From Deltaproteobacteria bacterium (GTDB taxonomy: Bacteria; Myxococcota_A; Polyangia; Polyangiales; Houyiibacteriaceae), in contig JAADHO010000118.1 in the NCBI GenBank assembly GCA_013151775.1, forward strand, positions 988 through 64,987: 64,000 nucleotides of DNA, given 5' to 3'. Below, in pieces: positions 41,703 through 64,000 of the stretch (positions are counted from its first letter, which is position 1; the number at the start of each line of letters is the position of its first letter). Below the pieces are notes generated by a model. That model ran no database searches. It saw only the letters and a program-made list of their open reading frames with translations, and was not told the DNA's origin. A program made the position numbers and the translations under genes.

Positions 41703-41709
41703 GAGAAGG

Positions 41710-42392: not shown

Positions 42393-42411
42393 AACACAAA
42401 GCTATGAGCCG

Positions 42412-42518
42412 AACGCGATCACTGGATCCCCGTTCAGTGAACGCCAATCGATCCACCAGATGGCGCAAGGCGGTGGGGTATGTGGATGAAGTGTCAGAAG
42501 CGCAGCGTCTCGTGCGTC
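42412..42518 (+). repeat. cas3-leader-like element, copy 2
   Basis: Near-identical to copy 1 over ~85 nt, and shares GTCAGAAGCG...CGTGCGTC with copy 3. Confidence 0.85.
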
Positions 42519-42541
42519 GAAGGGGTGTGATGATCCAGCCA

Positions 42542-42919: not shown

Positions 42920-43140
42920 TGCGCTGCGTCGTTCTCCCGCGCTGTTCTCGCAAGCTCCGCGGCGTACAGCAGGGCTTCGCGGATGTCGTCTTGCTCGAGA
43001 TCCGGATACGCGTCGAGGATCTCGGACGTCGTCATCTGCGCGACCAGACCCACGACGAGGCTGACAGGGATGCGCAGCCCACGGATACAAGGCTGCCCCT
43101 CGAGCTGGTCCGGTCGAATGGTGATGCGTGGGAAGGGCAT
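42916..43140 (-). CDS. DUF433-family putative antitoxin
   Basis: 74 aa. ITIRPDQLEGQPCIRGLRIPVSLVVGLVAQMTTSEILDAYPDLEQDDIREALLYA is the DUF433 core. Confidence 0.8.
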   Translation of the reverse strand: MPFPRITIRPDQLEGQPCIRGLRIPVSLVVGLVAQMTTSEILDAYPDLEQDDIREALLYAAELARTARENDAAQ

Positions 43141-43199
43141 AGCGCGATCGCAGTGTAGCGCGATTCGGCGGAAGCTGCGGGCGGATGAGGGAGCGCATG

Positions 43200-43420
43200 C
43201 GAGAGCATCGTGACAGCTGGGCGCTGATCAGACAAGCATTTTCTGTGTTAGCTAGAGTTGCACCTTGTAGAAAATGTATATTCTGCTAGGATGGGATTGT
43301 GAGTGAAATCCACCACAGGCTGAAAACGCCGAAAGGCTGGTCTTGCACCAAAATGTGCGTGCGAGGTCTGAGTACGTCTTCGTGGTACGCTCATGCTGTC
43401 CCGAGGCCGGGAGCCAGGTC
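43200..43420. promoter_or_regulatory. AT-rich tract between the divergent TA operon and cas3, a likely promoter region
   Basis: Only markedly AT-rich non-coding stretch in the island (43241-43300 is 23/60 G+C by count). I could not pin convincing -35/-10 boxes. Confidence 0.35.
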
Positions 43421-46123: not shown

Positions 46124-48257
46124 CAGCGTCCACAGGCACGAGCTCGGCGGATGCTCACCCACACCCCTCGCGGGCTACCTCAAGTCCCTGGGCATCCTGC
46201 GCCTGGTGAGCGAGCAGGCGGATGCCACGGCCCGAGGCGCCTGGCGTCACGAGTGCTTCACCCTCTGGACCCGCCTGGATCGCGAAGCGCTCGAGCGCTT
46301 CTTTCTGGAGCAGTACGCGCCGACGCCGGTGGTCACACCATGGAATGGTGGCAGTGGTTTTTACCCGAAGGACAACAAGGACGGCATCGACTTCATCGAG
46401 TCGTCCACGTCCAGTCGCTTCGCCGGTTACCGCGACACCATCCGTCAGGCTCGCAAGCTGCTGTCGGAGCTGAATCTCGCCGAGAAGCCCGACGCGAAGC
46501 ACGAGAAACCGCGCCTGCTCGCCGCGTGCCGAGGAAGCTTCAGCGACACAGCCCTCGACTGGCTCGACGCGGCCTATGTGTTGGGCGACACCGACCCCAA
46601 ATATCCTCCGGTGCTGGGCACCGGCGGGAACGAGGGGCGACTGGAATTCGCTAACAACCTGATGCAGCGGCTGTCCGAGCTGCTCGATGCCGAGGGTGCA
46701 CCTCAGCCACCCGCACGAGCATGGCTCTGGGCCACGCTCTGGGGCCAAGCAGTGGCGGGTCTGCGCGCAGTGTCAGTGGGTCAATTTCAACCCGGGGCGG
46801 CCGGTGGCCCCAACGCCGCCGCCGGTTACGAAGGCAAGGCGAACGTCAACCCGTGGGACTTCGTCTTGATGATCGAGGGCGCGCTGATGCTCGGCGGCAG
46901 CGCCGTGCGCCGTTATGATGTCAGCGGCTCACGAGGCCGCGCGGCCTTCCCGTTCGCGGTCGGAGCCACGGCGTCGGGCTACGCCAGCGCCGCGAGCGCG
47001 GACGAGGGGGACTCACGAGGAGAGCTCTGGTTGCCGCTGTGGAGCGAGCCCACGAGCGCGCAGGAGCTGCGCGCCCTGATGGGCGAGGGTCGCGCGGATA
47101 TCCAAGGCCGGCGCGCGCGCACAGGCCTCGACTTCGCCCAGGCCGTGTCGTCGCTCGGCGTGGACCGCGGGATCGAGTCTTTCGAACGCTATGGCTTTCA
47201 TGTGCGCAACGGGCTGTCCTACTTCGCCACCACGCTGGGTCGCTATCAGGTCGGGACCTCCCAACATGTCGGCCTGCTGCGCGACCTCGACACCTGGCTG
47301 GATCGCAACCGGGGCAAGTGTGCAGGCGACACGGCGCCCGCCTCCGTCCGCCGCGCGCTGCGCCGCTTCGAGACGGCGGCCATGCTGATGGCGTCACGCG
47401 ACGACGTCACCAGCGTCGGTGAAGCGCTGCTGAGCCTGGGCTCCCTCGAGGCCGCCCTGGGATCGAGCCTGACCTTCTGCAGCAAGAGCTTCGTGCCGCC
47501 GCTGCCGCCCCTGCGTCGCGCATGGATCGAGGCGACGCGATCGGATTCGCCCGAGATGCGCCTCGCCGACGCCCTCGCCAGCGTGGCAGACCGCTACGGC
47601 GGCCTCGATCTGCCCATCCGGTCGCAGGTCGAGCCCGTAGAACGACGGGGCCGTTTCTGGACCTTCGCCAAGACGACGCATGAGGTGCTCTGGCATCAGG
47701 GCTCGCTCGTCCGCTCGATGAACAGCGTCTTCGAGCGCCGCGTGCTGCTCGCCAGCACATCCGAAGCGCGCTTCGCCGATCGAGGCCGCATCTTCAGCGG
47801 TCTCGGCGACATCGACGCCTTCATCCTGGGCCGAACGGATGACAAGCTGCTCGAGCGCTGGTTCCGAGCTTGCCTGCTGCTCGAGCGCCCAGAGGCGCGC
47901 GCCTTCCCCCCAGCGCGCACTCAGCGGCCGGTACCCTACGCCGGCTACGGCCTTCCCAAGCTCACCTTCGCGCCCGGTCCGGTCGGCGACCAGCACATCC
48001 CCATCACGCCGCGCATCCTCCGCCTGATGCGCACCGGGCGTGCCGTCGACGCCATGCAGGCCACCGCGCGCCGCCTTCGCGCGAGCGGGCTCGCGCCCAC
48101 CACGCATGAAGTCCACGCCGATCGTGAGCGCATGCGGCGCTGCGCCGCGGCGCTGCTCTTTCCCATCTCCCACGCAGACACCGAACGCCTCGCCGGCCGC
48201 TACCTCAGCGCCGGCACCAACACGCCCCTGTCCCATCAACCCACGGAAAGCCCATGA
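46116..48257 (+). CDS. csx17: type I-G large subunit Csx17 (Cas8g/Cas8u)
   Basis: 713 aa. N-terminus LGGCSPTPLAGYLKSLGILRLVSEQAD is typical of Csx17. Sits between cas3 and csb1 and overlaps cas3 by 8 nt. Confidence 0.85.
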   Translation: MNDSVHRHELGGCSPTPLAGYLKSLGILRLVSEQADATARGAWRHECFTLWTRLDREALERFFLEQYAPTPVVTPWNGGSGFYPKDNKDGIDFIESSTSSRFAGYRDTIRQARKLLSELNLAEKPDAKHEKPRLLAACRGSFSDTALDWLDAAYVLGDTDPKYPPVLGTGGNEGRLEFANNLMQRLSELLDAEGAPQPPARAWLWATLWGQAVAGLRAVSVGQFQPGAAGGPNAAAGYEGKANVNPWDFVLMIEGALMLGGSAVRRYDVSGSRGRAAFPFAVGATASGYASAASADEGDSRGELWLPLWSEPTSAQELRALMGEGRADIQGRRARTGLDFAQAVSSLGVDRGIESFERYGFHVRNGLSYFATTLGRYQVGTSQHVGLLRDLDTWLDRNRGKCAGDTAPASVRRALRRFETAAMLMASRDDVTSVGEALLSLGSLEAALGSSLTFCSKSFVPPLPPLRRAWIEATRSDSPEMRLADALASVADRYGGLDLPIRSQVEPVERRGRFWTFAKTTHEVLWHQGSLVRSMNSVFERRVLLASTSEARFADRGRIFSGLGDIDAFILGRTDDKLLERWFRACLLLERPEARAFPPARTQRPVPYAGYGLPKLTFAPGPVGDQHIPITPRILRLMRTGRAVDAMQATARRLRASGLAPTTHEVHADRERMRRCAAALLFPISHADTERLAGRYLSAGTNTPLSHQPTESP

Positions 48258-49240
48258 ACCTCGAAGCATTGAACGAATCCCCCCGCCTCCTCCTCCAGGC
48301 CGAGCTGAAGCCCGTGCAGGGCACCCGCTTTCAGCCCACCGGCTTCCCCGACCTCGGCGCGGCCGAGTACAGCGTGACCGACGGGCGCAACATGCGAAAC
48401 ATGCTGCTGCTCGAGTCCGCCCAGAGCATGGCCAACCGCCTCGAGGCCGCCTGCTGGGACGAAGGCCAGGGTGATCTGGTACCCGCGCTTCAGGGCCTGC
48501 CCTACGTCAAGTCCACGCTGCCCGATGGGACGGTGACCAGCTCGATCTTGGAGGCCCATCGTCTCAACTCTCCCTACCTCTGCGACGCGACGGGCTACGA
48601 GGTGATCAAGGACGCCGTAGGCTTCATCAAGGACGCGCCCTTCGACCGCCGCAAGCTGGCGACAGCATTGCTGCGCTTCGACCCGAACAGCCTGCTGCAC
48701 GGCATCTTCCTCGAGAAGATCGGAGGCGTCGTGCGCCTGCCGCGCGCGCTCTCAGCGTTCGTCGAGGCCGAAGACGTCCACGTCGCGGCCGCGGGTGGTG
48801 TGAAGTTCGACCGCGTGCAGCCGACCTCGGCGGGCACCAACACCAAGTACGGCTCAGCCAACGAGGGCTACGGAAATGTGCCGTATCATCGCGACGAGTA
48901 CACGGCGAAGAGGATCGTCGCCTACTTCAATCTCGACCTCGCGCTGCTGCGGGGCCTAGGACTGAAGGACGCCGCCCTGCGGCTGATGACCACGCTGGCG
49001 CTCTACAAGATCCGGCGCTTCCTCGAGGCGGGCCTGCGCCTGCGCACGGCCTGCGATCTCGACGTGGTGGGCGAGGTCGAGGTGCAGCGGCCCGACGGCT
49101 TCGCCCTGCCCACGACGGAAGCCCTGGAGCAGGCTCTGCCGGCGCTGATCTCCGAGTGCGCACCTCTCTTCAACGATCCACGCGTGCTCGAACTCACCTA
49201 CGACAAGGACAAGAAGTCCGCCCGAACCAAGAAGGACTGA
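48254..49240 (+). CDS. csb1: type I-G Cas7 (Csb1, GSU0053 family)
   Basis: LQAELKPVQGTRFQPTGFPDLGAAEY signature. ATGA overlap with csx17. Confidence 0.88.
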   Translation: MNLEALNESPRLLLQAELKPVQGTRFQPTGFPDLGAAEYSVTDGRNMRNMLLLESAQSMANRLEAACWDEGQGDLVPALQGLPYVKSTLPDGTVTSSILEAHRLNSPYLCDATGYEVIKDAVGFIKDAPFDRRKLATALLRFDPNSLLHGIFLEKIGGVVRLPRALSAFVEAEDVHVAAAGGVKFDRVQPTSAGTNTKYGSANEGYGNVPYHRDEYTAKRIVAYFNLDLALLRGLGLKDAALRLMTTLALYKIRRFLEAGLRLRTACDLDVVGEVEVQRPDGFALPTTEALEQALPALISECAPLFNDPRVLELTYDKDKKSARTKKD

Positions 49241-49243: not shown

Positions 49244-50827
49244 ATGGTCACGCTCGAGATCCGGTTCCCCGGCGGGCGCTATCACGCCACGCCGTGGGAT
49301 CACCACGTCAACGAGGGAGTGGTCGAGTGGCCCCCCTCTCCCCTACGCATCGCGCGCGCTCTGCTGGCCACCTGGCACCTCAAGGCGCGCGACGAGCTCT
49401 CCGAATCGGCCGTGCGAAGCTTGTGCGAGTCCTTGGCGTCGAGTCTACCCATCTACGAGCTGCCGGAAGATGTCACCCCGGCACACACGCGCCACTACAT
49501 GCCCCTCGGAGGAACGAAGACCGGCAAGATCTTCGACGCCTTCCTTCGGATCGACGCCTCGCGTATCTTGGTGATCACTTGGCCAAACGTGGAGCTCGAC
49601 GACCCCGAGCTCGACGCGCTGCGCGTGCTGGCGCAGCGCCTGAGCTACCTCGGCCGTGCCGAGAGCTGGGTCGATGCGCGCGTGGCCGAGCGCCCCGTGG
49701 AGCGGCTCAACGCGGCGCCTGTCGAGCACCTCGACACAGGAGAGATCGTGCCCGTGCTCTGCGCCTACACCCCCGCAGAGTACGAGCGTTGGCGTGAGGC
49801 CGAGGTCGACCGGCAGCTCAGCCTCGAACTCGAGCAGCAGCGTCGCAAGGACATCGCGAAGGGAAAGCCTCCCGAGAAGACCAGACTCTCCAAGCGAAAG
49901 CGTGAGGGCATCAAGGCGAGCGTTCCCGCAGATCTCTTCGCGGCCTTGCACGTCGACACCACCCTGCTGCGCAAGCAGGGCTGGAGCGCGCCGCCGGGCA
50001 CACGCTGGATTAGCTACCGGCGACCCACACTGGCGCAGCCGCGCACTCCCAAACACGAGGCGAACGCGCCGAGCCCGTGCGCCGCGCGCTTCGCCGTGAG
50101 CGGGGCCGTACTGCCGCGGCTCACCGAGGCGTTGCGCTTTGGCGAGGCGGTGCGTGGCGCGCTTGGCCAGAGCCGCCTGCGCGTCTTTCACGGCAAGGAC
50201 GACGAAGGCCGACCTCTACTCGGTCATGAGCACGCCTTCTTCCTGCCCGAGTCCCACGGCCACGAGGGTCGCATCACGCACCTCTCCCTGTACGCTCGCG
50301 AGGGCCTCGATGCGAACGCGCAGGCGGCCATCGACAAGCTGGTCTCGGGCGAGATCAGGCTCGAGAAGGACGCCACCCACCCCATGAAGCTGACGCTGAT
50401 CGGCCTTGGCGAAAGGGACGAGCTCGGCAACACGGGCGCTCCACTCTTCGCCGAGGCGCGGGAGTGGTGCTCCCTGACGCCCTTCATCCCCACGCGACAC
50501 CTCAAGCGCAAGCGCAGCGGCGCGCCCAAGTTCGATGCTCACGGCCGAGCCATCGGCTCACCGGAGCACGATGTGCTGCGCCTCTTCGAACTGGCGGGCC
50601 TGCCCGCTGTGGAGCACATCGAGCCCACCGAGGGCGTGAAGCTCGGCGGGCGCATCGTGCGCTGGCTCGACTTCTACCGCTGGCGAGCGCGACATGGGCG
50701 AGGCGCGCGCGGTGACTCGCGTGGCTTCGGCTTCCGGGTCGTCTTCGCGCAGGCTGTGCGGGGCCCCATCGCCGTCGGCTTTGGTGCTCACTTTGGCTTG
50801 GGAATCTTCGGGCCCGAGTCGTCGTGA
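49244..50827 (+). CDS. csb2: type I-G Cas5-Cas6 fusion (Csb2, GSU0054 family)
   Basis: N-terminus LEIRFPGGRYHATPWDHHVNEGVVEWPPSPLRIARALLATW is typical of Csb2. 527 aa. Confidence 0.88.
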   Translation: MVTLEIRFPGGRYHATPWDHHVNEGVVEWPPSPLRIARALLATWHLKARDELSESAVRSLCESLASSLPIYELPEDVTPAHTRHYMPLGGTKTGKIFDAFLRIDASRILVITWPNVELDDPELDALRVLAQRLSYLGRAESWVDARVAERPVERLNAAPVEHLDTGEIVPVLCAYTPAEYERWREAEVDRQLSLELEQQRRKDIAKGKPPEKTRLSKRKREGIKASVPADLFAALHVDTTLLRKQGWSAPPGTRWISYRRPTLAQPRTPKHEANAPSPCAARFAVSGAVLPRLTEALRFGEAVRGALGQSRLRVFHGKDDEGRPLLGHEHAFFLPESHGHEGRITHLSLYAREGLDANAQAAIDKLVSGEIRLEKDATHPMKLTLIGLGERDELGNTGAPLFAEAREWCSLTPFIPTRHLKRKRSGAPKFDAHGRAIGSPEHDVLRLFELAGLPAVEHIEPTEGVKLGGRIVRWLDFYRWRARHGRGARGDSRGFGFRVVFAQAVRGPIAVGFGAHFGLGIFGPESS

Positions 50828-52656
50828 GCGGCGACGACCAGGCCGCGCCCGACCCCGAGCCCGACTCGCCAGCTCCTCCGCGCGCGAAGCACCTGCGCCC
50901 CGACCGCCATCCCCTCGCACTTCCGAGCGCCGCGCCCGACGCGGTGCCGGCGCGCATGGTCAACGAGGTGCTCTACTGCGAGCGCCTCATGTACCTCGAG
51001 TGGGCGCAGGGAGAGTTCGCCGACAACCACTACACCGTTCACGGGCGGGTCGTGCACAAGCGGGCCGACAAGCCCGGCAAACCGATTCGTAAGCCCGGCG
51101 CCAAGAAGGCCGCGAGCAAGACGAGTCCAGAGCAGGACGAGGCGTCCGAGGCCGAGCAAGAGGACCTGCCCTACACCGCCCGCAGCGTCTGGCTGACGTC
51201 CACCCGCTTGGGCCTGACGGCGCGCATCGACATCGTCGAGGCCGATCGCGAGGGCGTCGTGCCCATCGAGTACAAGCGCGGCAAGGCGCCGGACTTGCCA
51301 GACGGCGCGTGGCTGCCGGAGCGGGCACAGCTCATGGCGCAAGCGCTGCTGCTGCGGGACCACGGCTACACGGTGGAGCGCGCGGAGATCTACTTCGCCG
51401 GGGATCGGAAACGCGTGCCCATCGAGCTGTCAGCCGAGCTCGAGGCCGAGACGCGCGGCGCCATCGCGCGAGCGAAAGAGCTGACGGAGGCAGGCGCGAT
51501 CCCCGAACCGCTGCTCGACAGCCCGAAATGCAGCGGCTGCTCGCTGGTGGGCATCTGTCTGCCCGACGAGGTCAACTTGCTCTCCATCGGCGAATCGGAG
51601 CCGAGCGCGAGCGAGGCCACCGAGCCGCAGCTGCGCCGCCTGCACCCCGCACGTGACGAGCGGCTGCCCGTCTACGTGCAGGCGCACGCGGCGCGCATCG
51701 GGCTGAGCGGCGACTGCCTGGTGATCAAGACGCCCGAGGGAAAGCAAGAGGCACGGCTCCCGAACACCTCGCAGCTCGCCGTCTTCGGCAACGTGCAGCT
51801 GACGACGCCGGCGATGCGTGCGCTGCTCGACCGTGAGATCCCCCTCACCTTCTTCTCCTACGGCGGCTGGTTCCTTGGCCGGCTCGTGGGCCACGGCAGC
51901 AAGAACGTGGAGCTGCGGGTGGCACAACACCGGGGCGCCGCGGACCGCAGCTTCTGCGTGAAGCTCGCGCGCGGGCTCGTAGCGTCGAAGATCCTGAACT
52001 GCCGCACCCTCTATCGGCGCAACGCGGAGTCACCCGACGCGACGACGCTGGGCGAGCTGGAGAGGCTCGCTCAGGCTGCACGCGAGGCGGTGTCTCTGGA
52101 GTCGCTCTTGGGCTACGAGGGCACGGCGGCGCGGCTCTACTTCTCGGTGTTCAATCAGATGCTGAAGGGCCAGGCGGCTGTGGGCGCCTTCGACATGCAC
52201 GGCCGCAACCGCCGCCCTCCGCGGGATCCGATCAATGCGATGCTATCCTTCGCCTACAGCTTGCTCGCCAAGGAGCTGGCGCTGATGTGCGCGAACGTGG
52301 GGCTCGATCCGATGTTGGGGTTCTATCATCAGCTCCGCTATGGGAGGCCGGCCCTGGCGCTGGACTTGATGGAGGAGTTTCGGCCGATCGTGGCGGATTC
52401 GGTAGTCGTAGCGGCGCTGAACAACGGGGTGCTGACGGAATCTGATTTCGTGCGCAGCCATGTGGGCGTGGCGATGCGTCGCCCAGGGCGCAAGCGCTTC
52501 ATCGCGGCGTATGAGCGCCGGATGGATCAGCTGGTGACGCACCCGGTGTTCGGCTACCGCGTGAGCTACCGGCGCGTGTTCGAGATCCAGGCGCGCCTGT
52601 TGGGCCGCGTGCTGCTGGGCGAACTCGAGGAGTACCCGGAGTTCCGGACGCGATGA
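50824..52656 (+). CDS. cas4-cas1: Cas4-Cas1 fusion
   Basis: Cas4 part: MVNEVLYCERLMYLEW and Cys cluster CSGCSLVGIC. Cas1 part: INAMLSFAYSLLAKE, GLDPMLGFYHQLRYGRPALALDLMEEFRP. GTG start overlaps the csb2 stop. Confidence 0.92.
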   Translation: MSGDDQAAPDPEPDSPAPPRAKHLRPDRHPLALPSAAPDAVPARMVNEVLYCERLMYLEWAQGEFADNHYTVHGRVVHKRADKPGKPIRKPGAKKAASKTSPEQDEASEAEQEDLPYTARSVWLTSTRLGLTARIDIVEADREGVVPIEYKRGKAPDLPDGAWLPERAQLMAQALLLRDHGYTVERAEIYFAGDRKRVPIELSAELEAETRGAIARAKELTEAGAIPEPLLDSPKCSGCSLVGICLPDEVNLLSIGESEPSASEATEPQLRRLHPARDERLPVYVQAHAARIGLSGDCLVIKTPEGKQEARLPNTSQLAVFGNVQLTTPAMRALLDREIPLTFFSYGGWFLGRLVGHGSKNVELRVAQHRGAADRSFCVKLARGLVASKILNCRTLYRRNAESPDATTLGELERLAQAAREAVSLESLLGYEGTAARLYFSVFNQMLKGQAAVGAFDMHGRNRRPPRDPINAMLSFAYSLLAKELALMCANVGLDPMLGFYHQLRYGRPALALDLMEEFRPIVADSVVVAALNNGVLTESDFVRSHVGVAMRRPGRKRFIAAYERRMDQLVTHPVFGYRVSYRRVFEIQARLLGRVLLGELEEYPEFRTR

Positions 52657-52946
52657 GCCGCCAAGCCTACATCGTGAGCTACGACGTGTGTGACCCGAAG
52701 CGGCTGCGCAAGGTGTTCCGGGTGCTCCGCGGCTACGGGGACCACCTGCAGCTCTCGGTGTTTCGGTGTGAGTTAGACAAACGCGAACGCGTGGAGATGG
52801 TGGAACGACTGACCGGCGCGATCCATCATGGCGAGGATCAGGTCTTGGTCATCGACCTGGGTCCGGCGGATGGGCGCGGGAAGGATTGCTTCGAAGCGCT
52901 GGGCCGGCCCTATACTCATCCGGAGCGCCATGCCATCGTGGTGTGA
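52653..52946 (+). CDS. cas2: Cas2
   Basis: 97 aa. YIVSYDVCDPKRLRKVFRVLRGYGDHLQLSVFRCEL. ATGA overlap with cas4-cas1. Confidence 0.92.
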   Translation: MSRQAYIVSYDVCDPKRLRKVFRVLRGYGDHLQLSVFRCELDKRERVEMVERLTGAIHHGEDQVLVIDLGPADGRGKDCFEALGRPYTHPERHAIVV

Positions 52947-53160
52947 CGCGCATGAGCGCGCCGCCGGCCGCGAGAGGTCCAGTGGCGCAAAATCTACTGG
53001 CACCGCTCGCATAACAGCTAAGTCCTTGAAAACCGTATACGAATTCGGTCATGGTGGAGGCCCGACCCACAGCACCAGCAAGGCCGGAGGCCGCCACCAC
53101 GACTCACCCCTCGCAAACCAACCGCTAGCCCACCGACATCACTTAGATTTTGAGCAGTCC
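52947..53160 (+). promoter_or_regulatory. CRISPR leader
   Basis: 214 nt between the cas2 stop and the first repeat. Contains AT-richer patches (AACAGCTAAGTCCTTGAAAACCGTATACGAATTC, CACTTAGATTTTGAG). Confidence 0.6.
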
Positions 53161-56100
53161 CTCTCTCCCGCGAATCATCGCGGGCCCCATTGAAGCGTCG
53201 TATCCGATGAAGTGATACTCGCTGCCCTGGTGCGCTCTCTCCCGCGAATCATCGCGGGCCCCATTGAAGCGGATGGTCCAGAAAGCCATCGTCGATCACG
53301 AACCACGGCATCTCTCTCCCGCGAATCATCGCGGGCCCCATTGAAGCAAGCGATTGCTCGATCTGGCGATGGACCAGATCAACCTCTCTCCCGCGAATCA
53401 TCGCGGGCCCCATTGAAGCAGACCGGATGCCACAAGGCGCTCGAGGTGCCCTTGATCGCAGCTCTCTCCCGCGAATCATCGCGGGCCCCATTGAAGCAGA
53501 CTCCTCGACCAAGGCAAGTTGATCCGCCATGGAACTCTCTCCCGCGAATCATCGCGGGCCCCATTGAAGCATGGATGGGTGGTACTACCAGCGCGAAGAG
53601 GCAGTGATATCTCTCTCCCGCGAATCATCGCGGGCCCCATTGAAGCGTTCCCATCATCGATATCCGCGCTGGCGACGCCTCGCTCTCTCCCGCGAATCAT
53701 CGCGGGCCCCATTGAAGCGCATTCAGCAGTGTGATACTATCTGCTGATGCTGGTCTCTCTCCCGCGAATCATCGCGGGCCCCATTGAAGCTACTTCATCA
53801 CGTTGACAGAACTGCCGGTGGTTCCCTCTCTCCCGCGAATCATCGCGGGCCCCATTGAAGCTACCTGAGCCATGAAAAACAAATCATCGTCGACGTCTCA
53901 CACTCTCTCCCGCGAATCATCGCGGGCCCCATTGAAGCTGGGCGTGCTTCTACCTCGATTCCGCGCTGGGCAACTCTCTCCCGCGAATCATCGCGGGCCC
54001 CATTGAAGCACCTACGAGAGCGAGTGGGGCGAGCTGCCCGACGAGATCTCTCTCCCGCGAATCATCGCGGGCCCCATTGAAGCAGCATCTGCGCTGCCTT
54101 GGTGAGGCGGTCTTCTTGCGCCTCTCTCCCGCGAATCATCGCGGGCCCCATTGAAGCTTGAGCCACGACGCCAGCGAGTCCTTGAGCGCTGCGCCGCTCT
54201 CTCCCGCGAATCATCGCGGGCCCCATTGAAGCCGCAGCTCTTCGGGCTCGTAGCTCGACCTGACCCCCATCTCTCTCCCGCGAATCATCGCGGGCCCCAT
54301 TGAAGCTTGCGCGATTCGGGTGTGCTGTGACCCGGCGCGCGCGCCTCTCTCCCGCGAATCATCGCGGGCCCCATTGAAGCTCCGCGTCCACGAAGAGCAC
54401 CCAGCTCTGTAGGCCGCTCTCTCCCGCGAATCATCGCGGGCCCCATTGAAGCGCTATTCGCACGCGCTCGACCCGCCAGGTCAACCACATCTCTCTCCCG
54501 CGAATCATCGCGGGCCCCATTGAAGCGCCGTGCAGTACGACGTACAGCGCTCGCTCAACGTGCTCTCTCCCGCGAATCATCGCGGGCCCCATTGAAGCCT
54601 ATGGTGGTGAGAGGCGAGCGCATCGCTCGCCCGATAGCTCTCTCCCGCGAATCATCGCGGGCCCCATTGAAGCCCCCACGACGCGACCCAGCTACTCGCT
54701 CGAGCCGACTCTCTCCCGCGAATCATCGCGGGCCCCATTGAAGCGTCAAGTCCAGCGCGCGGGCAAACTCCTCTCCATAGACTCTCTCCCGCGAATCATC
54801 GCGGGCCCCATTGAAGCTAGAGCGCTGCGAGCGCCTTCGACACGGCAACCACCTCTCTCCCGCGAATCATCGCGGGCCCCATTGAAGCCGTTCCGGTCTT
54901 GCACTCGTCGAGAATCAGATTCCCGCTCTCTCCCGCGAATCATCGCGGGCCCCATTGAAGCTCGCGAGTGACGACCTCAGCCTGGTGCGCATCACGGCTC
55001 TCTCCCGCGAATCATCGCGGGCCCCATTGAAGCCGGGCTCGACTGAGTGCATCGCGGGCGGACTGGGTCCTCTCTCCCGCGAATCATCGCGGGCCCCATT
55101 GAAGCCTCCTTGTAGAAAGATGGGGACCCCCGCAACAGCAACCTCTCTCCCGCGAATCATCGCGGGCCCCATTGAAGCTCGGACTGGAACACCCTCAGCG
55201 CCTTGACCGTGCGCGCTCTCTCCCGCGAATCATCGCGGGCCCCATTGAAGCGAGCAGCGCAAGGCTCTCCTCGGGCAGCTGCACCACCTCTCTCCCGCGA
55301 ATCATCGCGGGCCCCATTGAAGCACCTCCTTGCGCCAATGTCTGCCGGGCGTCTTGGCGCGCTCTCTCCCGCGAATCATCGCGGGCCCCATTGAAGCGAG
55401 TGCGGCGGCGACCGTTGCTACGCGCCGCCCACCGACTCTCTCCCGCGAATCATCGCGGGCCCCATTGAAGCTCGACAATGAACGTCCCGGAATACCTGCG
55501 ATCAGTGTCTCTCTCCCGCGAATCATCGCGGGCCCCATTGAAGCCCGCACCCGGAGGGCCAGGGGCAGTGAAGGCCAGAGTCCTCTCTCCCGCGAATCAT
55601 CGCGGGCCCCATTGAAGCACTGACGTATGGAACAAGATGCGCGGGTGGCAGGGTGCTCTCTCCCGCGAATCATCGCGGGCCCCATTGAAGCAGCAACACT
55701 GTGACTGCGTTGGATGGGACCGCTATCGCCTCTCTCCCGCGAATCATCGCGGGCCCCATTGAAGCTCGCCAGTAGGAAGTCTCGTCGAGCTTGAGGATCT
55801 GGCTCTCTCCCGCGAATCATCGCGGGCCCCATTGAAGCCCGCTCGTCGTGCGCGACTCGGGCGTCTGATGGAGGGCTCTCTCCCGCGAATCATCGCGGGC
55901 CCCATTGAAGCCACACGTACGAGCAGCCCGCGCCAGCCCTTCTTTTGAAACTCTCTCCCGCGAATCATCGCGGGCCCCATTGAAGCGCCAGGAACATCAT
56001 CGCCGCCGCCTTGCCCTCCATCAGACCTCTCTCCCGCGAATCATCGCGGGCCCCATTGAAGCTCGGGATTGCTTGGGCGGTCATGAATCGCCAGCAAGCC

Positions 56101-59100
56101 TCTCTCCCGCGAATCATCGCGGGCCCCATTGAAGCACGGTTCCGGCCGCGTCCGTGACGGTCGACCACGAGCTCTCTCCCGCGAATCATCGCGGGCCCCA
56201 TTGAAGCATGTAGGGGCTGTTGCGGAGGAAGACCTGCAGGACGCTCTCTCCCGCGAATCATCGCGGGCCCCATTGAAGCCTCTTCCTCCTTCTCTTCCAT
56301 GAGAGTATCTACACGCCTCTCTCCCGCGAATCATCGCGGGCCCCATTGAAGCTTGTGATAGGGGAACATTCTCTCGATCCTCTTCCGAACTCTCTCCCGC
56401 GAATCATCGCGGGCCCCATTGAAGCCTCTTGTAGTAGATATCCAGAGCCCGCTTTTCCATGCCTCTCTCCCGCGAATCATCGCGGGCCCCATTGAAGCTG
56501 GGTGACGATTCCAAGGTGATCGGTCGCCAGGAACTCTCTCCCGCGAATCATCGCGGGCCCCATTGAAGCACTCCGAGGTGACGGTGCTGCGCGGAGCCGA
56601 GGGCCGCCTCTCTCCCGCGAATCATCGCGGGCCCCATTGAAGCCACGGCTGCGCGTGACGTCGCGTGCGCGCTGTGCTCCTCTCTCCCGCGAATCATCGC
56701 GGGCCCCATTGAAGCCCGCACAGTATCTCCCACGTGCCGCTGCCCAGCCGCTCTCTCCCGCGAATCATCGCGGGCCCCATTGAAGCGCCTCGAATCGACG
56801 TCAAGCGAGCCATTGTTGGATTCTCTCTCCCGCGAATCATCGCGGGCCCCATTGAAGCTCGGCGGTCACGAGCGAATTCGCGTCTGCTCCCGGCGACCTC
56901 TCTCCCGCGAATCATCGCGGGCCCCATTGAAGCGTCAAGTCGCGCATGAGCAAGGCCATGGCCGGAGGCCTCTCTCCCGCGAATCATCGCGGGCCCCATT
57001 GAAGCCCGATCAGTAGCGTCCGGAGCGTCGATCGAACGCGGGCCTCTCTCCCGCGAATCATCGCGGGCCCCATTGAAGCAACGATCGGTCCCGCGTTCCC
57101 GAGGTCCACGTTGATCTCTCTCCCGCGAATCATCGCGGGCCCCATTGAAGCGACATGACGGCAGTGAGCGCGACGAGCCCTCACGCCTCTCTCTCCCGCG
57201 AATCATCGCGGGCCCCATTGAAGCTTGCTCGAGGCCACGCCGGACACGGCCACGGAGCTGCTCTCTCCCGCGAATCATCGCGGGCCCCATTGAAGCGGCG
57301 AGTGGAAGATCACCAAGGTCAGCGACTACGGCACTCTCTCCCGCGAATCATCGCGGGCCCCATTGAAGCGAACTGAGGCGACGACTCATCCGCGCGAGTA
57401 GACGTCTCTCTCCCGCGAATCATCGCGGGCCCCATTGAAGCGACGCGCAGATCAACCCGATCATGCTCAGCTACGAGCTCTCTCCCGCGAATCATCGCGG
57501 GCCCCATTGAAGCTGTAGCCACATGCTGCGGACAGACGAGAAGCTACGGCTCTCTCCCGCGAATCATCGCGGGCCCCATTGAAGCCGCCGCCGCGTTTTG
57601 AGGTAGCTGAACTGCGTGACGGTCTCTCTCCCGCGAATCATCGCGGGCCCCATTGAAGCGGCTAGGTCTGGCAGGTCGGCCAGGCGTAGGTACGTGCTCT
57701 CTCCCGCGAATCATCGCGGGCCCCATTGAAGCTACCTGATCTCAATCATCACAGATCGCAAGTGGATCGGCACCTCTCTCCCGCGAATCATCGCGGGCCC
57801 CATTGAAGCGCTCACGCACATCAGATGACCCTGACCTCAGCGGCGCCCTCTCTCCCGCGAATCATCGCGGGCCCCATTGAAGGGTCGGGCTCTTGAGGCT
57901 GCCCTTTGCCGTTTGGTTTCTCTCTCCCGCGAATCATCGCGGGCCCCATTGAAGCAACTGGGACACCGTCGCGATGCTGATATCCGTGATGCCTCTCTCC
58001 CGCGAATCATCGCGGGCCCCATTGAAGCCGCGTGCAAGAGCTGGCAGACGCGTCGCACACGCGCGGATCTCTCTCCCGCGAATCATCGCGGGCCCCATTG
58101 AAGCTCTTCGTGCCCCGGTCGCCCGAGGCCGCGGATCAGCCTCTCTCCCGCGAATCATCGCGGGCCCCATTGAAGCTCGGCTCGCCGCCGCTGCCTCTGA
58201 TGTGATGCTCATGATCTACTCTCTCCCGCGAATCATCGCGGGCCCCATTGAAGCGCCACTGACGCCTACCCACTCGCCTACAACGCCCCCTCTCTCTCCC
58301 GCGAATCATCGCGGGCCCCATTGAAGCGCGTCGTGGCGCCCGGAGAGGTAGCCGATCACCACCTCTCTCCCGCGAATCATCGCGGGCCCCATTGAAGCGG
58401 ACGCTCGATCCGCGTTGGAACGGGTGGCGATCCCCTCTCTCCCGCGAATCATCGCGGGCCCCATTGAAGCACGTACGTCAGATTGCCGGCGCCATGGGTG
58501 TGCACGTCGTCTCTCTCCCGCGAATCATCGCGGGCCCCATTGAAGCGCTGTTAGGGGGCCGGCGACCATCATTGTCGAGGCTGCTCTCTCCCGCGAATCA
58601 TCGCGGGCCCCATTGAAGCCCGTCCACCCCAGCCGGGATATCGATCGTCACCCGAACTCTCTCCCGCGAATCATCGCGGGCCCCATTGAAGCTGCATGAC
58701 CGTGCGCGCGGCCGCAACCATGGCCTCCCTCTCTCCCGCGAATCATCGCGGGCCCCATTGAAGCACGGCGGCCATCAGGTGGCCCCGACGTGCGGACACT
58801 CTCTCTCCCGCGAATCATCGCGGGCCCCATTGAAGCGTCTCCTTCGCCGCGATGAACCGCCGTCGCGCCGCGACTCTCTCCCGCGAATCATCGCGGGCCC
58901 CATTGAAGCGCGATTTCGTAGGACATGAGATTCTCCGGCGGCTACTCTCTCCCGCGAATCATCGCGGGCCCCATTGAAGCGCCCTCTGCCGCGGCTGCCA
59001 CATCGGCTCAGCGCATCTCTCTCCCGCGAATCATCGCGGGCCCCATTGAAGCATCGGCGGCGGGATCTCAACGAGCATCTCTGATCTGCTCTCTCCCGCG

Positions 59101-62100
59101 AATCATCGCGGGCCCCATTGAAGCGCGGCCTCAGCATCGCCGAGCTACGGGGTGAGCCATCTCTCTCCCGCGAATCATCGCGGGCCCCATTGAAGCGTTT
59201 TTGAGCAAGCACTACACAGGCGTCATGGGTCACTCTCTCCCGCGAATCATCGCGGGCCCCATTGAAGCGGATGTTCGGCTGTATGCAGTCGCTGGCGATT
59301 GCGACTCTCTCCCGCGAATCATCGCGGGCCCCATTGAAGCATGCGCCGTCCGCCGCCGCCGCCCGCTCCTGCTCCGCCTCTCTCCCGCGAATCATCGCGG
59401 GCCCCATTGAAGCACCTCGTGTCGGGAGGTCTTGATGGTTGTAGTCATGACTCTCTCCCGCGAATCATCGCGGGCCCCATTGAAGCAGCCGACCTGCGCG
59501 GTGCTCGAGATGACGATCTCATCTCTCTCCCGCGAATCATCGCGGGCCCCATTGAAGCTACCAGAGCCTCGCGAACGCCGTGCCAGGCTCCAACGACTCT
59601 CTCCCGCGAATCATCGCGGGCCCCATTGAAGCTTTCAGTCATGACCCTATGTTGCCATACGCTCGAATAACTCTCTCCCGCGAATCATCGCGGGCCCCAT
59701 TGAAGCGTCAAGGCTCGCATGAGCAAGGCCATGGCCGGAGGCGTCCTCTCTCCCGCGAATCATCGCGGGCCCCATTGAAGCCTCTACTTCCTCACCGCTA
59801 CGCGGACAAGACACGCGCCTCTCTCCCGCGAATCATCGCGGGCCCCATTGAAGCAGCGCCGCTGCCACGATGCGCTCGGCCATCAGTCGACTCTCTCCCG
59901 CGAATCATCGCGGGCCCCATTGAAGCGGGGTACTTGGTCCATTGCCCGCGCCCCCACAAGCCACTCTCTCCCGCGAATCATCGCGGGCCCCATTGAAGCA
60001 GCGAGCAGGCGCGGCGCATGCTGCCGGACTACGCCTCTCTCCCGCGAATCATCGCGGGCCCCATTGAAGCCGCGTGGACGTGCGCGTAGGCCAGCGCGTG
60101 CGCCGCCTCTCTCCCGCGAATCATCGCGGGCCCCATTGAAGCCGCGCGTTGCCCCGTCGCATGCGTACCGCGGCCGAATCCTCTCTCCCGCGAATCATCG
60201 CGGGCCCCATTGAAGCCAATCGCGGTCTCGGCCGCTATCTCGCTGGCCATGCTCCTCTCTCCCGCGAATCATCGCGGGCCCCATTGAAGCATGCTCGAGC
60301 GCCGTAGGACGTCGAGGGCCTGCCTCACTCTCTCCCGCGAATCATCGCGGGCCCCATTGAAGCGCCACCTTCAGCGCAGCCTTCGCGATGGCGCGGAAGG
60401 CTCTCTCCCGCGAATCATCGCGGGCCCCATTGAAGCGCGCCGCCGTGGGCAGGTGGCTTGAGCAGCTGGAGACTCTCTCCCGCGAATCATCGCGGGCCCC
60501 ATTGAAGCCCGGCAGCCACCTTGTTCCTGATGCCCGTGTCCGCACGCTCTCTCCCGCGAATCATCGCGGGCCCCATTGAAGCGGAGGCGTCGACGATGTT
60601 CCGCTGTAGCCTGCGCAGCTCTCTCCCGCGAATCATCGCGGGCCCCATTGAAGCTCCCCTATGTTGGCTACCGTGGCAGCAGTCAAATCAGCTCTCTCCC
60701 GCGAATCATCGCGGGCCCCATTGAAGCGCGCGCGTCTATCTTGCTCCGCGTACCGATGGGCCCTCTCTCCCGCGAATCATCGCGGGCCCCATTGAAGCGT
60801 GATGATCAGCTGCGGACGCGCGCCGACCAAGCTGGCTCTCTCCCGCGAATCATCGCGGGCCCCATTGAAGCCAGGAGGTCCTAGACGCCATCCTCGAAAT
60901 CCGGAAGGACACTCTCTCCCGCGAATCATCGCGGGCCCCATTGAAGCCCGGGACCGCCGTCCCGAACGCATCGCGACCCGTGCGCTCTCTCCCGCGAATC
61001 ATCGCGGGCCCCATTGAAGCCCACCACACACCGACTGGACCGCATCCCTGAACGGATCTCTCTCCCGCGAATCATCGCGGGCCCCATTGAAGCGTGCCAG
61101 GCTACGTCTTCGGCGAGTACGCCGCCCGCGTGCTCTCTCCCGCGAATCATCGCGGGCCCCATTGAAGCCGCCGGGCGAGCGTTGCCCGCGTGCCAGGCCA
61201 GGTCCTCTCTCCCGCGAATCATCGCGGGCCCCATTGAAGCAGCGCAATCCGCAGAGCACGCCTGACCTCATCCCGCTCTCTCCCGCGAATCATCGCGGGC
61301 CCCATTGAAGCCGCAGTCGCGCGGCGAAGTCGGCGAAGAGCGTCTCCTCTCTCCCGCGAATCATCGCGGGCCCCATTGAAGCATGGAGAACAAGCGCCCA
61401 ATCGCCCGTGTAGACGAGACCTCTCTCCCGCGAATCATCGCGGGCCCCATTGAAGCCATCGGGAGGTGAGTAATGGCTGAGCCCGAGCTGCTGATCTCTC
61501 TCCCGCGAATCATCGCGGGCCCCATTGAAGCGTTTCGACGAAGAACCTTGATCACGACGTTCTCGTGCTCTCTCCCGCGAATCATCGCGGTCCCCATTGA
61601 AGCGCCCATCCGTACGCGATCCTGTCCATCGCTCTGCTCTCTCTCTCCCGCGAATCATCGCGGGCCCCATTGAAGCGCATCGCCGCGCAACGCGCGCGTC
61701 TGGGGGGCCTGATCTCTCTCCCGCGAATCATCGCGGGCCCCATTGAAGCCTGGGGGACGACGTCGCAGGCGCACTACACGAGCGACTCTCTCCCGCGAAT
61801 CATCGCGGGCCCCATTGAAGCAGCGTGCCAGAGCTCTTGTAGACCGCGTCAGCCACGAGCTCTCTCCCGCGAATCATCGCGGGCCCCATTGAAGCAGCGT
61901 GATCACGTCTCCTGCGATGCTCTTGATCTCGCGTAGCTCTCTCCCGCGAATCATCGCGGGCCCCATTGAAGCGTGTCCATGGCGTGCGCGATAGCCACGT
62001 TGGTCAGCTCTCTCCCGCGAATCATCGCGGGCCCCATTGAAGCGACGTGGGGCAGCCGGGGTGGCCTTTCACGGTGTCCTCTCTCCCGCGAATCATCGCG

Positions 62101-64000
62101 GGCCCCATTGAAGCACCGTACGCCACCACCGGCGGGACCGGCTCGAGGACTCTCTCCCGCGAATCATCGCGGGCCCCATTGAAGCGGGTTGCCGTCGGTC
62201 TTGCGCGCGCCGGTCGCGATCCTCTCTCCCGCGAATCATCGCGGGCCCCATTGAAGCAACAGCTGGGTTACAGCGGCCCTACGCTTATGGGGCCTCTCTC
62301 CCGCGAATCATCGCGGGCCCCATTGAAGCTTTGGGGATATGCCTCCCATGCGCGCCGCTGTAGCCCCTCTCTCCCGCGAATCATCGCGGGCCCCATTGAA
62401 GCCGTTCTGACGTCGAATCGATGCAAGCTCGACTCGCCGCTCTCTCCCACGAATCATCGCGGGCCCCATTGAAGCGCGTAGCCCTGGGCGAGGGCGATCA
62501 CCGGGACGATGCTCTCTCCCGCGAATCATCGCGGGCCCCATTGAAGCAAGGTCGGCGCGTTGACGTTCGGCGAGGCAACCTACTCTCTCCCGCGAATCAT
62601 CGCGGGCCCCATTGAAGCCCGAGCTTGAACCGAATGGCCGCGTCGGGGTTTCGCCGGCTCTCTCCCGCGAATCATCGCGGGCCCCATTGAAGCCGCAGCA
62701 GCGCGCACTCATTGACCATGCGGCCATTCTCTCTCCCGCGAATCATCGCGGGCCCCATTGAAGCCACGCCAGGACGTCGACAATCGCGCTCACAACTGAC
62801 GCTCTCTCCCGCGAATCATCGCGGGCCCCATTGAAGCTGCTACATGCAATCCGGCTACCTCTTCCCCTGGGTCCTCTCTCCCGCGAATCATCGCGGGCCC
62901 CATTGAAGCAGGAACTCCAGGTCAATGCTGCTAGGTAGGACACCGCTCTCTCCCGCGAATCATCGCGGGCCCCATTGAAGCCCGCCGAGCTGCTGAGCCT
63001 CCTCAGCGAAGCCTGCGACTCTCTCCCGCGAATCATCGCGGGCCCCATTGAAGCGTCGGCGGCGGGATCTCGACGAGCATCTCTGATCTGACCTCTCTCC
63101 CGCGAATCATCGCGGGCCCCATTGAAGCGGCGGCGTCCGTCGCTGCCATACCCACTACTAATGCATCTCTCTCCCGCGAATCATCGCGGGCCCCATTGAA
63201 GCAAGGTGGGCACGCTGACATTCGGCGAGGCGACCTACGGCTCTCTCCCGCGAATCATCGCGGGCCCCATTGAAGCAATCCTGCGGTTGCTGTCCAGTCA
63301 AAGCGGCCTCCTACCAACTCTCTCTCTCCCGCGAATCATCGCGGGCCCCATTGAAGCTTGGGCGCGGCCTTCTTGGTGGTCGAGGTTGACTCGGACTCTC
63401 TCCCGCGAATCATCGCGGGCCCCATTGAAGCTCGTGCGTGCAGAAGCCATCGTCGAGCTTGAACCAGACTCTCTCCCGCGAATCATCGCGGGCCCCATTG
63501 AAGCTCCGGGAGGCCGAGGCGACCACGCAGGCCCTCTCGACCACCTCTCTCCCGCGAATCATCGCGGGCCCCATTGAAGCGTTCAGCAGCAGGCGCGGAC
63601 CGATGCGGCGACGCACTCTCTCCCGCGAATCATCGCGGGCCCCATTGAAGCATGCCGGCCACGATGGAGGACAACCCACACCTCGACCCTCTCTCCCGCG
63701 AATCATCGCGGGCCCCATTGAAGCAGGGGCCCGAGGCCGTGGCCGCGGCGAGCGAAGAGCCCTCTCTCCCGCGAATCATCGCGGGCCCCATTGAAGCGGC
63801 TGGAGTTTGTCTGCCAGTCGCAGCAGTTCGGCGGCGCTCTCTCCCGCGAATCATCGCGGGCCCCATTGAAGCGCTTCCAGGATCGCTACGCGCCGGCACA
63901 GGAGGCTGACTCTCTCCCGCGAATCATCGCGGGCCCCATTGAAGCTGCGCGCTGCTCGATGTGCTCAGCGTGGCAGCGATCCTCTCTCCCGCGAATCATC
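53161..64000 (+). CRISPR. type I-G CRISPR array with a 36-nt repeat, 148 complete repeats plus a truncated 149th at the window edge, and 148 spacers
   Basis: Repeats were enumerated manually. Repeat sequence: CTCTCTCCCGCGAATCATCGCGGGCCCCATTGAAGC. It has a 7-bp stem CCCGCGA/TCGCGGG with a 4-nt loop and an ATTGAAGC 3' end typical of type I handles. Spacers are 35-45 nt. Variant repeats carry changes at 57883 (C>G), 61591 (G>T) and 62449 (G>A). Confidence 0.98.

What the first reader, a model, noticed from the sequence alone, without database searches (positions are those of the whole stretch)
53271..63468. Four pairs of homologous but diverged spacers that share the same 5' boundary
The pairs are as follows.
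- S129 (62548-62582, AAGGTCGGCGCGTTGACGTTCGGCGAGGCAACCTA) versus S138 (63203-63240, AAGGTGGGCACGCTGACATTCGGCGAGGCGACCTACGG). There are 5 mismatches in 35 nt, mostly at codon third positions. The reading is K-V-G-A/T-L-T-F-G-E-A-T-Y.
- S52 (56934-56969) versus S90 (59707-59745). They are identical except for TCG versus GCT at positions 7-9.
- S81 (59053-59088) versus S136 (63055-63092). They have 2 mismatches.
- S2 (53271-53311) versus S141 (63432-63468). 22 of 37 nt are identical without gaps. Their reverse complements encode MPWFVIDDGFLDHP and WFKLDDGFCTH, which look like the N-terminus of one protein family.

In every pair the alignment starts at spacer position 1, while the 3' ends differ by 2-4 nt.

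This suggests repeated acquisition from the same site of related but diverged mobile elements. It also suggests that the leader-proximal spacer end is fixed by the PAM while the other end is measured loosely.
Basis: seen in the sequence. Interest (0 to 1): 0.6.

Follow-up and report, generated by a model that had tools for sequence, protein, structure and literature searches.

The report
Repeat captures at one phage site
A very long type I-G CRISPR array, probably from a myxobacterium, holds four pairs of spacers captured independently from the same site of related but diverged phage-like elements; the shared 5' end and ragged 3' end fit what is already known about how this system cuts new spacers, so it is a tidy natural example, not a new mechanism.

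Summary
Window 53161 to 64000 and beyond is one CRISPR array: 148 full repeats of 36 nt and 147 spacers of 35-45 nt. It lies downstream of a complete type I-G cas operon. An unbiased all-against-all comparison finds exactly the four reported pairs. All four are on the same strand in register at spacer position 1, and their 3' ends differ by 2-4 nt.

- **Duplication inside the array is excluded.** The pairs differ in length and by 5.6-40% of bases, while the repeats carry 3 changes in 5328 nt. Four of the five changes in pair S129/S138 are synonymous.
- **One pair could be mapped, at family level.** S2 and S141 both encode, on the antisense strand, the N-terminus (WFxxDDGF) of a phage replication initiation protein, PHROG 2447. 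In 118 of 120 homologues a TTN motif sits directly 5' of their shared boundary. TTN is the experimentally known PAM of the Geobacter type I-G system.
- **The whole array shows the same asymmetry.** G+C content has a strong 3-base periodicity when spacers are aligned at their 5' ends and none when aligned at their 3' ends.

Exact protospacers were not found for any pair. Other type I-G arrays show the same kind of pairs. This is known biology: Cas4 cuts the PAM end precisely, and the other end is trimmed without sequence specificity. Interest is low to moderate.

The parts
43691..46123 (+). cas3g (type I-G helicase/nuclease)
   Evidence: NCBIfam TIGR02621 cas3_GSU0051, E 1.9e-224
46116..48257 (+). 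cas8g1/csx17
   Evidence: NCBIfam TIGR04113, E 4.4e-199
48254..49240 (+). cas7g/csb1
   Evidence: NCBIfam TIGR02570, E 2.1e-33
49244..50827 (+). csb2 (Cas5-Cas6-like)
   Evidence: NCBIfam TIGR02165, E 3.5e-52
50824..52656 (+). cas4g/cas1g fusion (adaptation nuclease/integrase)
   Evidence: NCBIfam NF049935, E 1.1e-221. The closest relatives are 55-60% identical and come from Myxococcota/Polyangia genomes.
52653..52946 (+). cas2
   Evidence: NCBIfam TIGR01573, E 6.3e-9
52947..53160 (+). leader (inferred): the non-coding stretch between cas2 and the first repeat
   Evidence: Sequence read. In related type I-G loci the array likewise follows cas2 in the same orientation.
53161..64000 (+). CRISPR array: 148 full repeats plus one partial repeat of CTCTCTCCCGCGAATCATCGCGGGCCCCATTGAAGC, and 147 spacers of 35-45 nt. 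It runs off the end of the window.
53271..53311 (+). S2 (41 nt). The antisense strand encodes MPWFVIDDGFLDH(P). This is the newer member of pair 4.
   Evidence: family mapping
63432..63468 (+). S141 (37 nt). The antisense strand encodes WFKLDDGFCTH. This is the older member of pair 4.
   Evidence: It matches locus L015 at 31 of 36 bases, with TTC as the 5' flank.
62548..62582 (+). S129 (35 nt), sense strand encoding KVGALTFGEAT(Y)
63203..63240 (+). S138 (38 nt), sense strand encoding KVGTLTFGEATYG
56934..56969 (+). S52 (36 nt), partner of S90
59707..59745 (+). S90 (39 nt), partner of S52
59053..59088 (+). S81 (36 nt), partner of S136
63055..63092 (+). S136 (38 nt), partner of S81

Best explanation
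[quoted passage not shown] Each of the four pairs records two separate adaptation events. In both events the Cas4/Cas1-Cas2 complex captured the homologous protospacer from two related but diverged mobile elements. For S2/S141 the target is the first codons of a phage replication initiation gene.

The two members of a pair start at the same base because the Cas4 domain cuts exactly at a 5' PAM, inferred here to be TTN. That PAM end is joined next to the 3' end of the new leader-proximal repeat, so it becomes spacer position 1. The PAM itself is kept in place by coding constraint. In pair 4 it comes from a conserved Lys codon, AAR, read on the antisense strand as YTT.

The other end is trimmed without sequence specificity, by the Cas1 domain or by host exonucleases. 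As a result the same site yields spacers that differ by 2-4 nt at the 3' end.

Shown here: the array, the cas type, the pairs, their register, non-duplicative divergence, the family-level target of one pair, conserved TTN at that boundary, and 5'-anchored codon phase across the whole array. Inferred: the PAM identity for this particular system, the enzymology (taken from Geobacter and other type I-G studies), and that pairs 1-3 come from homologous genes of related elements.
For: - **System type.** All six type I-G cas genes are present. In 80 loci related through Cas4/Cas1, the arrays detected downstream of cas2 have the same 36-nt repeat class ending in ATTGAAGC and the same orientation.
- **The pairs.** The only four similar spacer pairs all sit at offset 0 on the same strand. 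Their length differences are 3, 3, 2 and 4 nt, against a mean of 1.7 for random pairs.
- **Divergence.** Pairs differ at 5.6-40% of bases, against 3 changes in 5328 nt of repeat. In pair 1 only one frame is open and 4 of 5 changes are synonymous.
- **Target of pair 4.** At least 120 IMG/VR loci carry the motif at a gene start, M-x-WF[KR][VI]DDGFxxHPK. The four members I scanned match PHROG 2447, replication initiation protein, at E 1e-41 to 1e-47.
- **PAM.** TTN lies directly 5' of the equivalent boundary in 118 of 120 loci (examples).
- **Whole-array asymmetry.** G+C at spacer positions 3, 6, 9... is 0.77, against 0.58-0.59 in the other two phases, when spacers are anchored at the 5' end. None of 2000 random-trim controls reaches this amplitude. 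Anchored at the 3' end the amplitude is 0.02. All G+C-rich type I-G arrays examined show the same phase.
- **Literature.** TTN PAM upstream of protospacers, 36-bp spacers and priming are reported for G. sulfurreducens type I-U/I-G (PMC6547450). The Cas4 domain cuts the PAM end, which is then integrated at the spacer side. The Cas1 domain trims the non-PAM end without sequence specificity, to overhangs of 6-8 nt (PMC10504553).
Against: - No exact or near-exact protospacer was found for any of the eight spacers. I searched INPHARED phages, PLSDB plasmids, IMG/VR, JGI metagenome contigs and GTDB representative genomes.
- The PAM is therefore inferred from one protein family plus codon phase. The codon phase would also fit other 3-nt PAMs whose first two bases fall on codon positions 1-2.
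- Type I-G PAMs are not uniform: Bifidobacterium lactis uses TAT (PMC12915315).
- S2/S141 is not significant at nucleotide level alone.
- PAM-like triplets read from shifted or opposite-strand overlapping pairs in other type I-G arrays were mixed: TCA, CTC, CTG, TTT, TAT, TTG and others.
Confidence: 0.85

Rival explanations
1. Escape and refresh. This refines the main explanation; it does not replace it. The older spacer of each pair lost full activity against a variant element that carried seed or other mismatches. The imperfect match then primed adaptation, and the same PAM-flanked site was captured again from the escape variant.
For: - In every pair the two members are separated in the array, and the leader-proximal one is by definition the later acquisition.
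- The mismatches include seed-like positions: position 1 in S81/S136 and position 7 in S52/S90.
- Priming has been demonstrated for type I-U/I-G (PMC6547450).
- All 4 overlapping pairs here use the same site, whereas roughly one third would be expected. About 2.6 alternative TTN sites lie nearby, and 8 of 24 overlapping pairs in other type I-G arrays are at offset 0.
Against: - In G. sulfurreducens type I-U, primed acquisition shows no location or orientation bias and follows PAM density (PMC6547450), so priming alone does not predict recapture of the same site.
- S2/S141 differ at 40% of bases. That is too diverged for the old spacer to prime on the new element.
- Hot-spot protospacer usage, or selection for spacers in conserved genes, explains the same data.
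- The excess of same-site pairs is weak (p about 0.01-0.04, on a rough null).
Confidence: 0.25
2. Duplication of a repeat-spacer unit inside the array, or recombination between arrays, followed by mutation of one copy.
For: - Exact duplicated spacers and duplicated two-spacer blocks do occur in other type I-G arrays, for example L164 and L139.
- The literature usually attributes recurring spacers to duplication (PMC12915315).
Against: - Pair members differ in length by 2-4 nt at the 3' end while the adjoining repeats are intact.
- The neighbouring spacers are unrelated.
- Divergence is 100 to 700 times the repeat mutation frequency.
- The substitutions are biased towards synonymous changes.
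- S2/S141 keep a protein motif at 60% nucleotide identity.
Confidence: 0.03
3. Chance resemblance. This applies to S2/S141 only.
For: 22 of 35 identical bases at offset 0 is only one step above the best chance pairs among 10,731, which reach 20-21.
Against: - Both spacers, and no other spacer in any frame, encode WFxxDDGF on the same strand and in the same register.
- The motif is the start of a large phage protein family.
- S141 matches a family member at 31 of 36 bases.
Confidence: 0.04

Closest known systems
Type I-G (formerly I-U) CRISPR-Cas adaptation by the Cas4/Cas1 fusion plus Cas2, as characterised in Geobacter sulfurreducens (Almendros et al. 2019, PMC6547450; Dhingra & Sashital 2023, PMC10504553)
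   Same: The gene set is the same, including the cas4-cas1 fusion. The repeat is 36 nt and ends in ...GAAGC, so its last three bases are AGC, the 'CRISPR repeat PAM' named in PMC6547450. Spacers are about 36-37 nt. The inferred PAM, TTN, lies at the side that becomes spacer position 1. The PAM end is precise and the non-PAM end is variable.
   Different: Cas4/Cas1 is only 55-60% identical even to its nearest genome relatives, which are all Myxococcota. The array is far larger, with at least 148 repeats. The PAM and the enzymology were not measured for this system. The spread of spacer lengths (35-45 nt) may be wider than in Geobacter.
Independent repeated acquisition of the same protospacer through biased protospacer sampling ('hot' protospacers; discussed in Kupczok et al. 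2015, PMC4524480)
   Same: The same PAM-flanked site is captured more than once, and the resulting spacers lie non-adjacent in the array.
   Different: Here the two captures came from diverged homologues, 60-94% identical, so the copies are not identical. Both copies sit in one array; they are not spread across strains.
Recurring or near-identical spacers attributed to duplication within the array (as summarised in PMC12915315)
   Same: Near-identical spacers occur twice in one array.
   Different: The length differences, the synonymous-change bias and the unrelated neighbouring spacers argue against duplication here.

Membership tests
[quoted passage not shown] | Signature genes cas3g, cas8g1/csx17, cas7g/csb1, csb2, the cas4/cas1 fusion and cas2 | tested here: met
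   All six match the type I-G-specific NCBIfam models above their curated cut-offs.
[quoted passage not shown] | Array downstream of cas2 with a 36-nt repeat ending in ATTGAAGC | tested here: met
   The repeat is CTCTCTCCCGCGAATCATCGCGGGCCCCATTGAAGC. Nearly all arrays parsed from the 80 related type I-G loci show the same length and 3' end.
[quoted passage not shown] | 5' PAM of the TTN type next to spacer position 1 | tested here: inconclusive
   TTN is present at the homologous boundary in 118 of 120 relatives of the S2/S141 target, and the 5'-anchored codon phase is compatible with it. No true protospacer was recovered, and Bifidobacterium type I-G uses TAT.
[quoted passage not shown] | Precise Cas4 cut at the PAM end, with sequence-independent trimming of the non-PAM end | not testable with these tools
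   Taken from PMC10504553. The array data agree with it: the 5' end is fixed and the 3' end is variable.
Independent acquisitions of homologous protospacers (as opposed to duplication inside the array) | The copies differ in processed length and their neighbouring spacers are unrelated | tested here: met
   Length differences are 3, 3, 2 and 4 nt, and no other similar spacer pairs exist in the array.
Independent acquisitions of homologous protospacers (as opposed to duplication inside the array) | The differences bear the mark of selection in the source gene | tested here: met
   In pair 1, 4 of 5 changes are synonymous in the only open frame. Pair 4 keeps the protein motif at 60% nucleotide identity. 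Pairs 2 and 3 have too few changes to test.
Independent acquisitions of homologous protospacers (as opposed to duplication inside the array) | Both members map to the same gene in two related elements | tested here: inconclusive
   This was met at family level for pair 4 only, with PHROG 2447. No hits were obtained for pairs 1-3.
PHROG 2447 phage replication initiation protein (target of S2/S141) | The peptide encoded by the spacer matches the family's N-terminal motif at the gene start | tested here: met
   S2 encodes MPWFVIDDGFLDH and S141 encodes WFKLDDGFCTH. The family N-terminus is M-x-WF[KR][VI]DDGFxxHPK in 120 loci. The four members scanned score E 1e-41 to 1e-47 against phrog_2447.

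The most novel reading that the evidence does not exclude
Recapture of the same site is not just hot-spot sampling. Under this reading a crRNA that still binds a diverged target hands that very protospacer to Cas4/Cas1-Cas2, so old spacers are 'refreshed' in place against escape variants. This would explain why all overlapping pairs in this array use the identical PAM site although about 2.6 alternative TTN sites lie within reach. A lesser but more certain by-product is that 5'-anchored codon-phase periodicity gives a database-free way to orient an array and tell which spacer end is PAM-defined.
Probability: 0.08. Interest if true: 0.6.

Novelty: new member of a known kind. Interest (0 to 1): 0.25.

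Why it matters
The pairs act as natural replicates of adaptation at one site. They show, in an uncultured-type host and without any experiment, that the type I-G machinery fixes the PAM end and is imprecise by several nucleotides at the other end. They also show that the host met diverged relatives of the same phage lineage repeatedly. This confirms laboratory findings from Geobacter in the wild. It cautions against calling every recurring spacer a duplication. It also yields a simple internal test, codon phase anchored at one spacer end, for array orientation and PAM side when no targets are known. It does not reveal a new mechanism.

Tried and rejected
- **blastn searches.** I searched the whole array against INPHARED phages and PLSDB plasmids. 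Only chance-level hits came back, with E of 0.07-0.8.
- **Degenerate-codon pattern scans.** Pairs 1-3, and S2 and S141 individually, gave 0 hits in IMG/VR. Pair 1 gave 0 in GTDB genomes. Pair 2 gave 0 in JGI metagenomes. The repeat gave 0 in metagenomes.
- **Source genome.** It is not in any of the collections. The Cas2 and Cas8g products are also not on record.
- **Shortened TFGEATYG pattern.** It gave one IMG/VR hit, L201. The upstream context is not homologous and its PHROG match is insignificant, so I treated it as chance.
- **Peptide searches.** Searching the six-frame translations of all fetched loci for the peptides of pairs 1-3 gave none.
- **Search of the 5.8-billion-protein set.** I abandoned this.
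- **Self-targets.** A BLAST of all spacers against the rest of the window and the 80 related cas loci found none.
- **S97 versus L109.** A 26-of-28 match has no TTN flank and was judged to be chance.
- **PAM read-out from other arrays.** Triplets read from shifted or opposite-strand overlapping spacers in other type I-G arrays were mixed and uninformative.
- **Duplication inside the array.** Considered and rejected (see rival explanations).
Full report
**What is there.** Window 53161-64000 is a single CRISPR array. It has 148 complete copies, plus one copy truncated by the window end, of the 36-nt repeat CTCTCTCCCGCGAATCATCGCGGGCCCCATTGAAGC. 145 copies are identical. Single-base variants occur at 57848, 61568 and 62440. 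There are 147 spacers of 35-45 nt, with mean 37.1 and SD 1.66.

Immediately upstream on the same strand lies a complete type I-G operon:
- cas3g, 43691-46123
- cas8g1/csx17, 46116-48257
- cas7g/csb1, 48254-49240
- csb2, 49244-50827
- a cas4/cas1 fusion, 50824-52656
- cas2, 52653-52946

A 214-nt leader-like gap follows cas2. The closest Cas4/Cas1 relatives in 185,579 species-representative genomes are only 55-60% identical. All of them are Myxococcota/Polyangia, including Labilithrix, Polyangiaceae and Sorangium. The host is therefore probably a high-G+C myxobacterium (68-70% G+C) that is not itself in the collections. In the 80 related type I-G loci, the arrays detected lie downstream of cas2 in the same orientation, and nearly all have 36-nt repeats ending in ATTGAAGC.

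**Check of the observation.** All eight spacers are at the stated coordinates with the stated sequences. An ungapped local comparison of every spacer pair, at every offset and on both strands, returns exactly these four pairs as the top scores:
- S81/S136, score 32
- S52/S90, score 30
- S129/S138, score 20
- S2/S141, score 14

All are on the same strand at offset 0. Shuffled spacers never exceed 13. Mismatches and lengths are as claimed: 5 of 35, 2 of 36, 2 of 36 and 15 of 37 mismatches, with length differences of 3, 3, 2 and 4 nt. On nucleotides alone S2/S141 is marginal, at 22 of 35 identical against chance pairs at 20-21 among 10,731. However, these are the only two spacers, in any of six frames, that encode WFxxDDGF, and they do so on the same strand and in the same register. 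The repeat borders are unambiguous, so the shared 5' end and the unequal 3' ends cannot be artefacts of border definition.

**Not duplication.** Four observations argue against duplication inside the array:
- The neighbours of the paired spacers are unrelated.
- The copies differ in length at the end abutting an intact repeat.
- The copies differ at 5.6-40% of bases, whereas the repeats carry 3 changes in 5328 nt.
- In S129/S138 only forward frame 1 is open (KVG[A/T]LTFGEAT), and 4 of the 5 substitutions are synonymous in it. That is the signature of divergence inside a coding gene, not of drift in an array.

**Target of one pair.** In almost every case the hit lay at the start of an ORF whose N-terminus reads M-x-WF[KR][VI]DDGFxxHPK. 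The four members I scanned match PHROG 2447, 'replication initiation protein', at E 1e-41 to 1e-47. S141 matches one member, L015, at 31 of 36 bases.

**PAM side.** In gene sense, both spacers end two bases into the codon that follows the conserved His, and the next codon is the conserved Lys (AAR). On the spacer strand this reads 5'-YTTN-3' directly before spacer position 1. 118 of the 120 family members have TTN there: TTC 64, TTG 34, TTT 12 and TTA 8 (examples). TTN upstream of the protospacer is the experimentally established acquisition and interference PAM of the G. sulfurreducens type I-U/I-G system. In that system AGC, the repeat's last three bases and the same as here, is the non-licensing 'repeat PAM' (PMC6547450). 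The shared boundary of this pair therefore coincides with a PAM that is held in place by a conserved codon.

**Whole-array test without any database.** If the 5' end is set by a motif that is codon-phase biased in G+C-rich coding DNA, all spacers should share a codon phase when aligned at their 5' ends. TT arises mainly from TTC (Phe) on the sense strand and from AAG (Lys) on the antisense strand. Both place spacer position 3 on a wobble base.
- Anchored at the 5' end, G+C is 0.77 at positions 3, 6, 9... against 0.58-0.59 in the other two phases. None of 2000 controls, in which each spacer is trimmed by 0-2 nt at random, reaches this amplitude.
- Anchored at the 3' end, the amplitude is 0.02, which is the null level.
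- The same phase appears in every G+C-rich type I-G array among the related loci, for example L147, L127, L157, L191 and L140.

This shows, for the array as a whole, that the leader-proximal end is sequence-defined and the distal end is not. The phase is compatible with TTN but would also fit some other 3-nt PAMs, so on its own it does not identify the PAM.

**Mechanism.** Published biochemistry of type I-G Cas4/Cas1 explains the pattern (PMC10504553). The Cas4 domain cleaves the PAM end sequence-specifically, and that end is integrated at the 'spacer side'. The Cas1 domain cleaves the non-PAM end without sequence specificity, leaving mostly 6-8 nt overhangs with some longer, and that end is integrated at the 'leader side'. 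By the geometry of integration (my inference from the standard two-step model), the strand joined at the repeat-spacer junction ends up next to the 3' end of the new leader-proximal repeat. The pairs are natural replicates of one site. Their length differences (3, 3, 2, 4 nt) are at least as large as those of random spacer pairs (mean 1.7), so spacer length is not dictated by the local sequence.

**Generality.** Among 2173 spacers from this array and the related type I-G arrays, other arrays also contain diverged pairs at offset 0 with unequal 3' ends: L173 (35/36), L199 (37/41 and 40/37), L152 (38/35) and L164 (37/38 and 37/36). They also contain overlapping pairs at other offsets or on the opposite strand, and exact duplicated blocks. 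Roughly one third of the overlapping, non-identical pairs are same-site (8 of 24). That agrees with the approximately 2.6 alternative TTN sites found near the pair-4 site. Having all pairs same-site in this window is only a weak excess (p about 0.01-0.04). It may reflect hot-spot usage, selection for conserved targets, or priming by the older, mismatched spacer. Priming exists in type I-U, but there it follows PAM density without location bias (PMC6547450). Three of the four older members (S136, S138, S141) lie within six spacers of one another, which suggests they came from one element in one episode. Their newer counterparts (S81, S129, S2) are scattered, as expected for later encounters with relatives.

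**What failed.** No exact protospacer was found for any pair in phage, plasmid, IMG/VR, metagenome or representative-genome collections. A protein-level search with 13-residue peptides is statistically infeasible. For pairs 1-3, 'same gene in two related elements' therefore rests on the coding pattern alone, and the PAM of this particular system remains inferred.

**Verdict.** The literature already recognises independent acquisition of the same protospacer (PMC4524480), although recurring spacers are often put down to duplication (PMC12915315). This is a clean natural example in a new, very large myxobacterial-type I-G array, and not a new kind of system.

Noticed in passing
window 53161-64000: The array is unusually long. 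It has at least 148 repeats and is still running at the window end. Only three repeats carry a single-base variant (57848, 61568, 62440), and all three lie far from the cas side.
   Followed up: partly
window 53197-63909 (all spacers); loci L121-L200: G+C content of spacers shows a strong 3-base periodicity, peaking at positions 3, 6, 9..., only when spacers are aligned at the 5' end. The same phase is seen in every G+C-rich type I-G array examined. This could serve as a database-free indicator of array orientation and of the PAM side.
   Followed up: yes
window 63055-63468: Three of the four older pair members (S136, S138, S141) lie within six spacers of each other, while their newer homologues (S81, S129, S2) are scattered. 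This suggests one early encounter with a single element, followed by later encounters with its relatives.
   Followed up: no
window 36199-43213: Upstream of cas3 lie several further ORFs: a WYL+WCX-domain protein (40634-41569, a likely regulator), an overlapping ORF with Fic-like_C and HATPase_c_4 domains (41173-42213), a SEC-C-motif protein (38222-39328), an M78/IrrE-like peptidase-domain protein (36199-38070) and two ORFs with no family match (39410-40567 and 42197-43213). This may be further defence or regulatory content.
   Followed up: partly
window 18919-19112, 20403-20519, 21081-21149: Three tandem arrays of 18-nt units (10.8, 6.5 and 3.8 copies) lie in or near large ORFs. One of these ORFs (19243-20706, minus strand) has a right-handed beta-helix domain. 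They are probably hexapeptide-repeat coding sequence.
   Followed up: no
L164 16934-17187 and 20262-20659; L139 16134-16597: Other type I-G arrays contain exact duplicated blocks of two adjacent spacers. These are true duplications inside the array and contrast with the diverged, unequal-length pairs in the window.
   Followed up: partly
L199 13115-20427: The Gemmatimonadaceae type I-G array holds many mutually overlapping spacers, on both strands and at several offsets, that share motifs such as CTGGCGACAGGTC. This suggests heavy sampling of one small or internally repeated target.
   Followed up: no
window 63277-63321: Spacer S139 is 45 nt, the longest in the array and 8 nt above the mean.
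   Followed up: no
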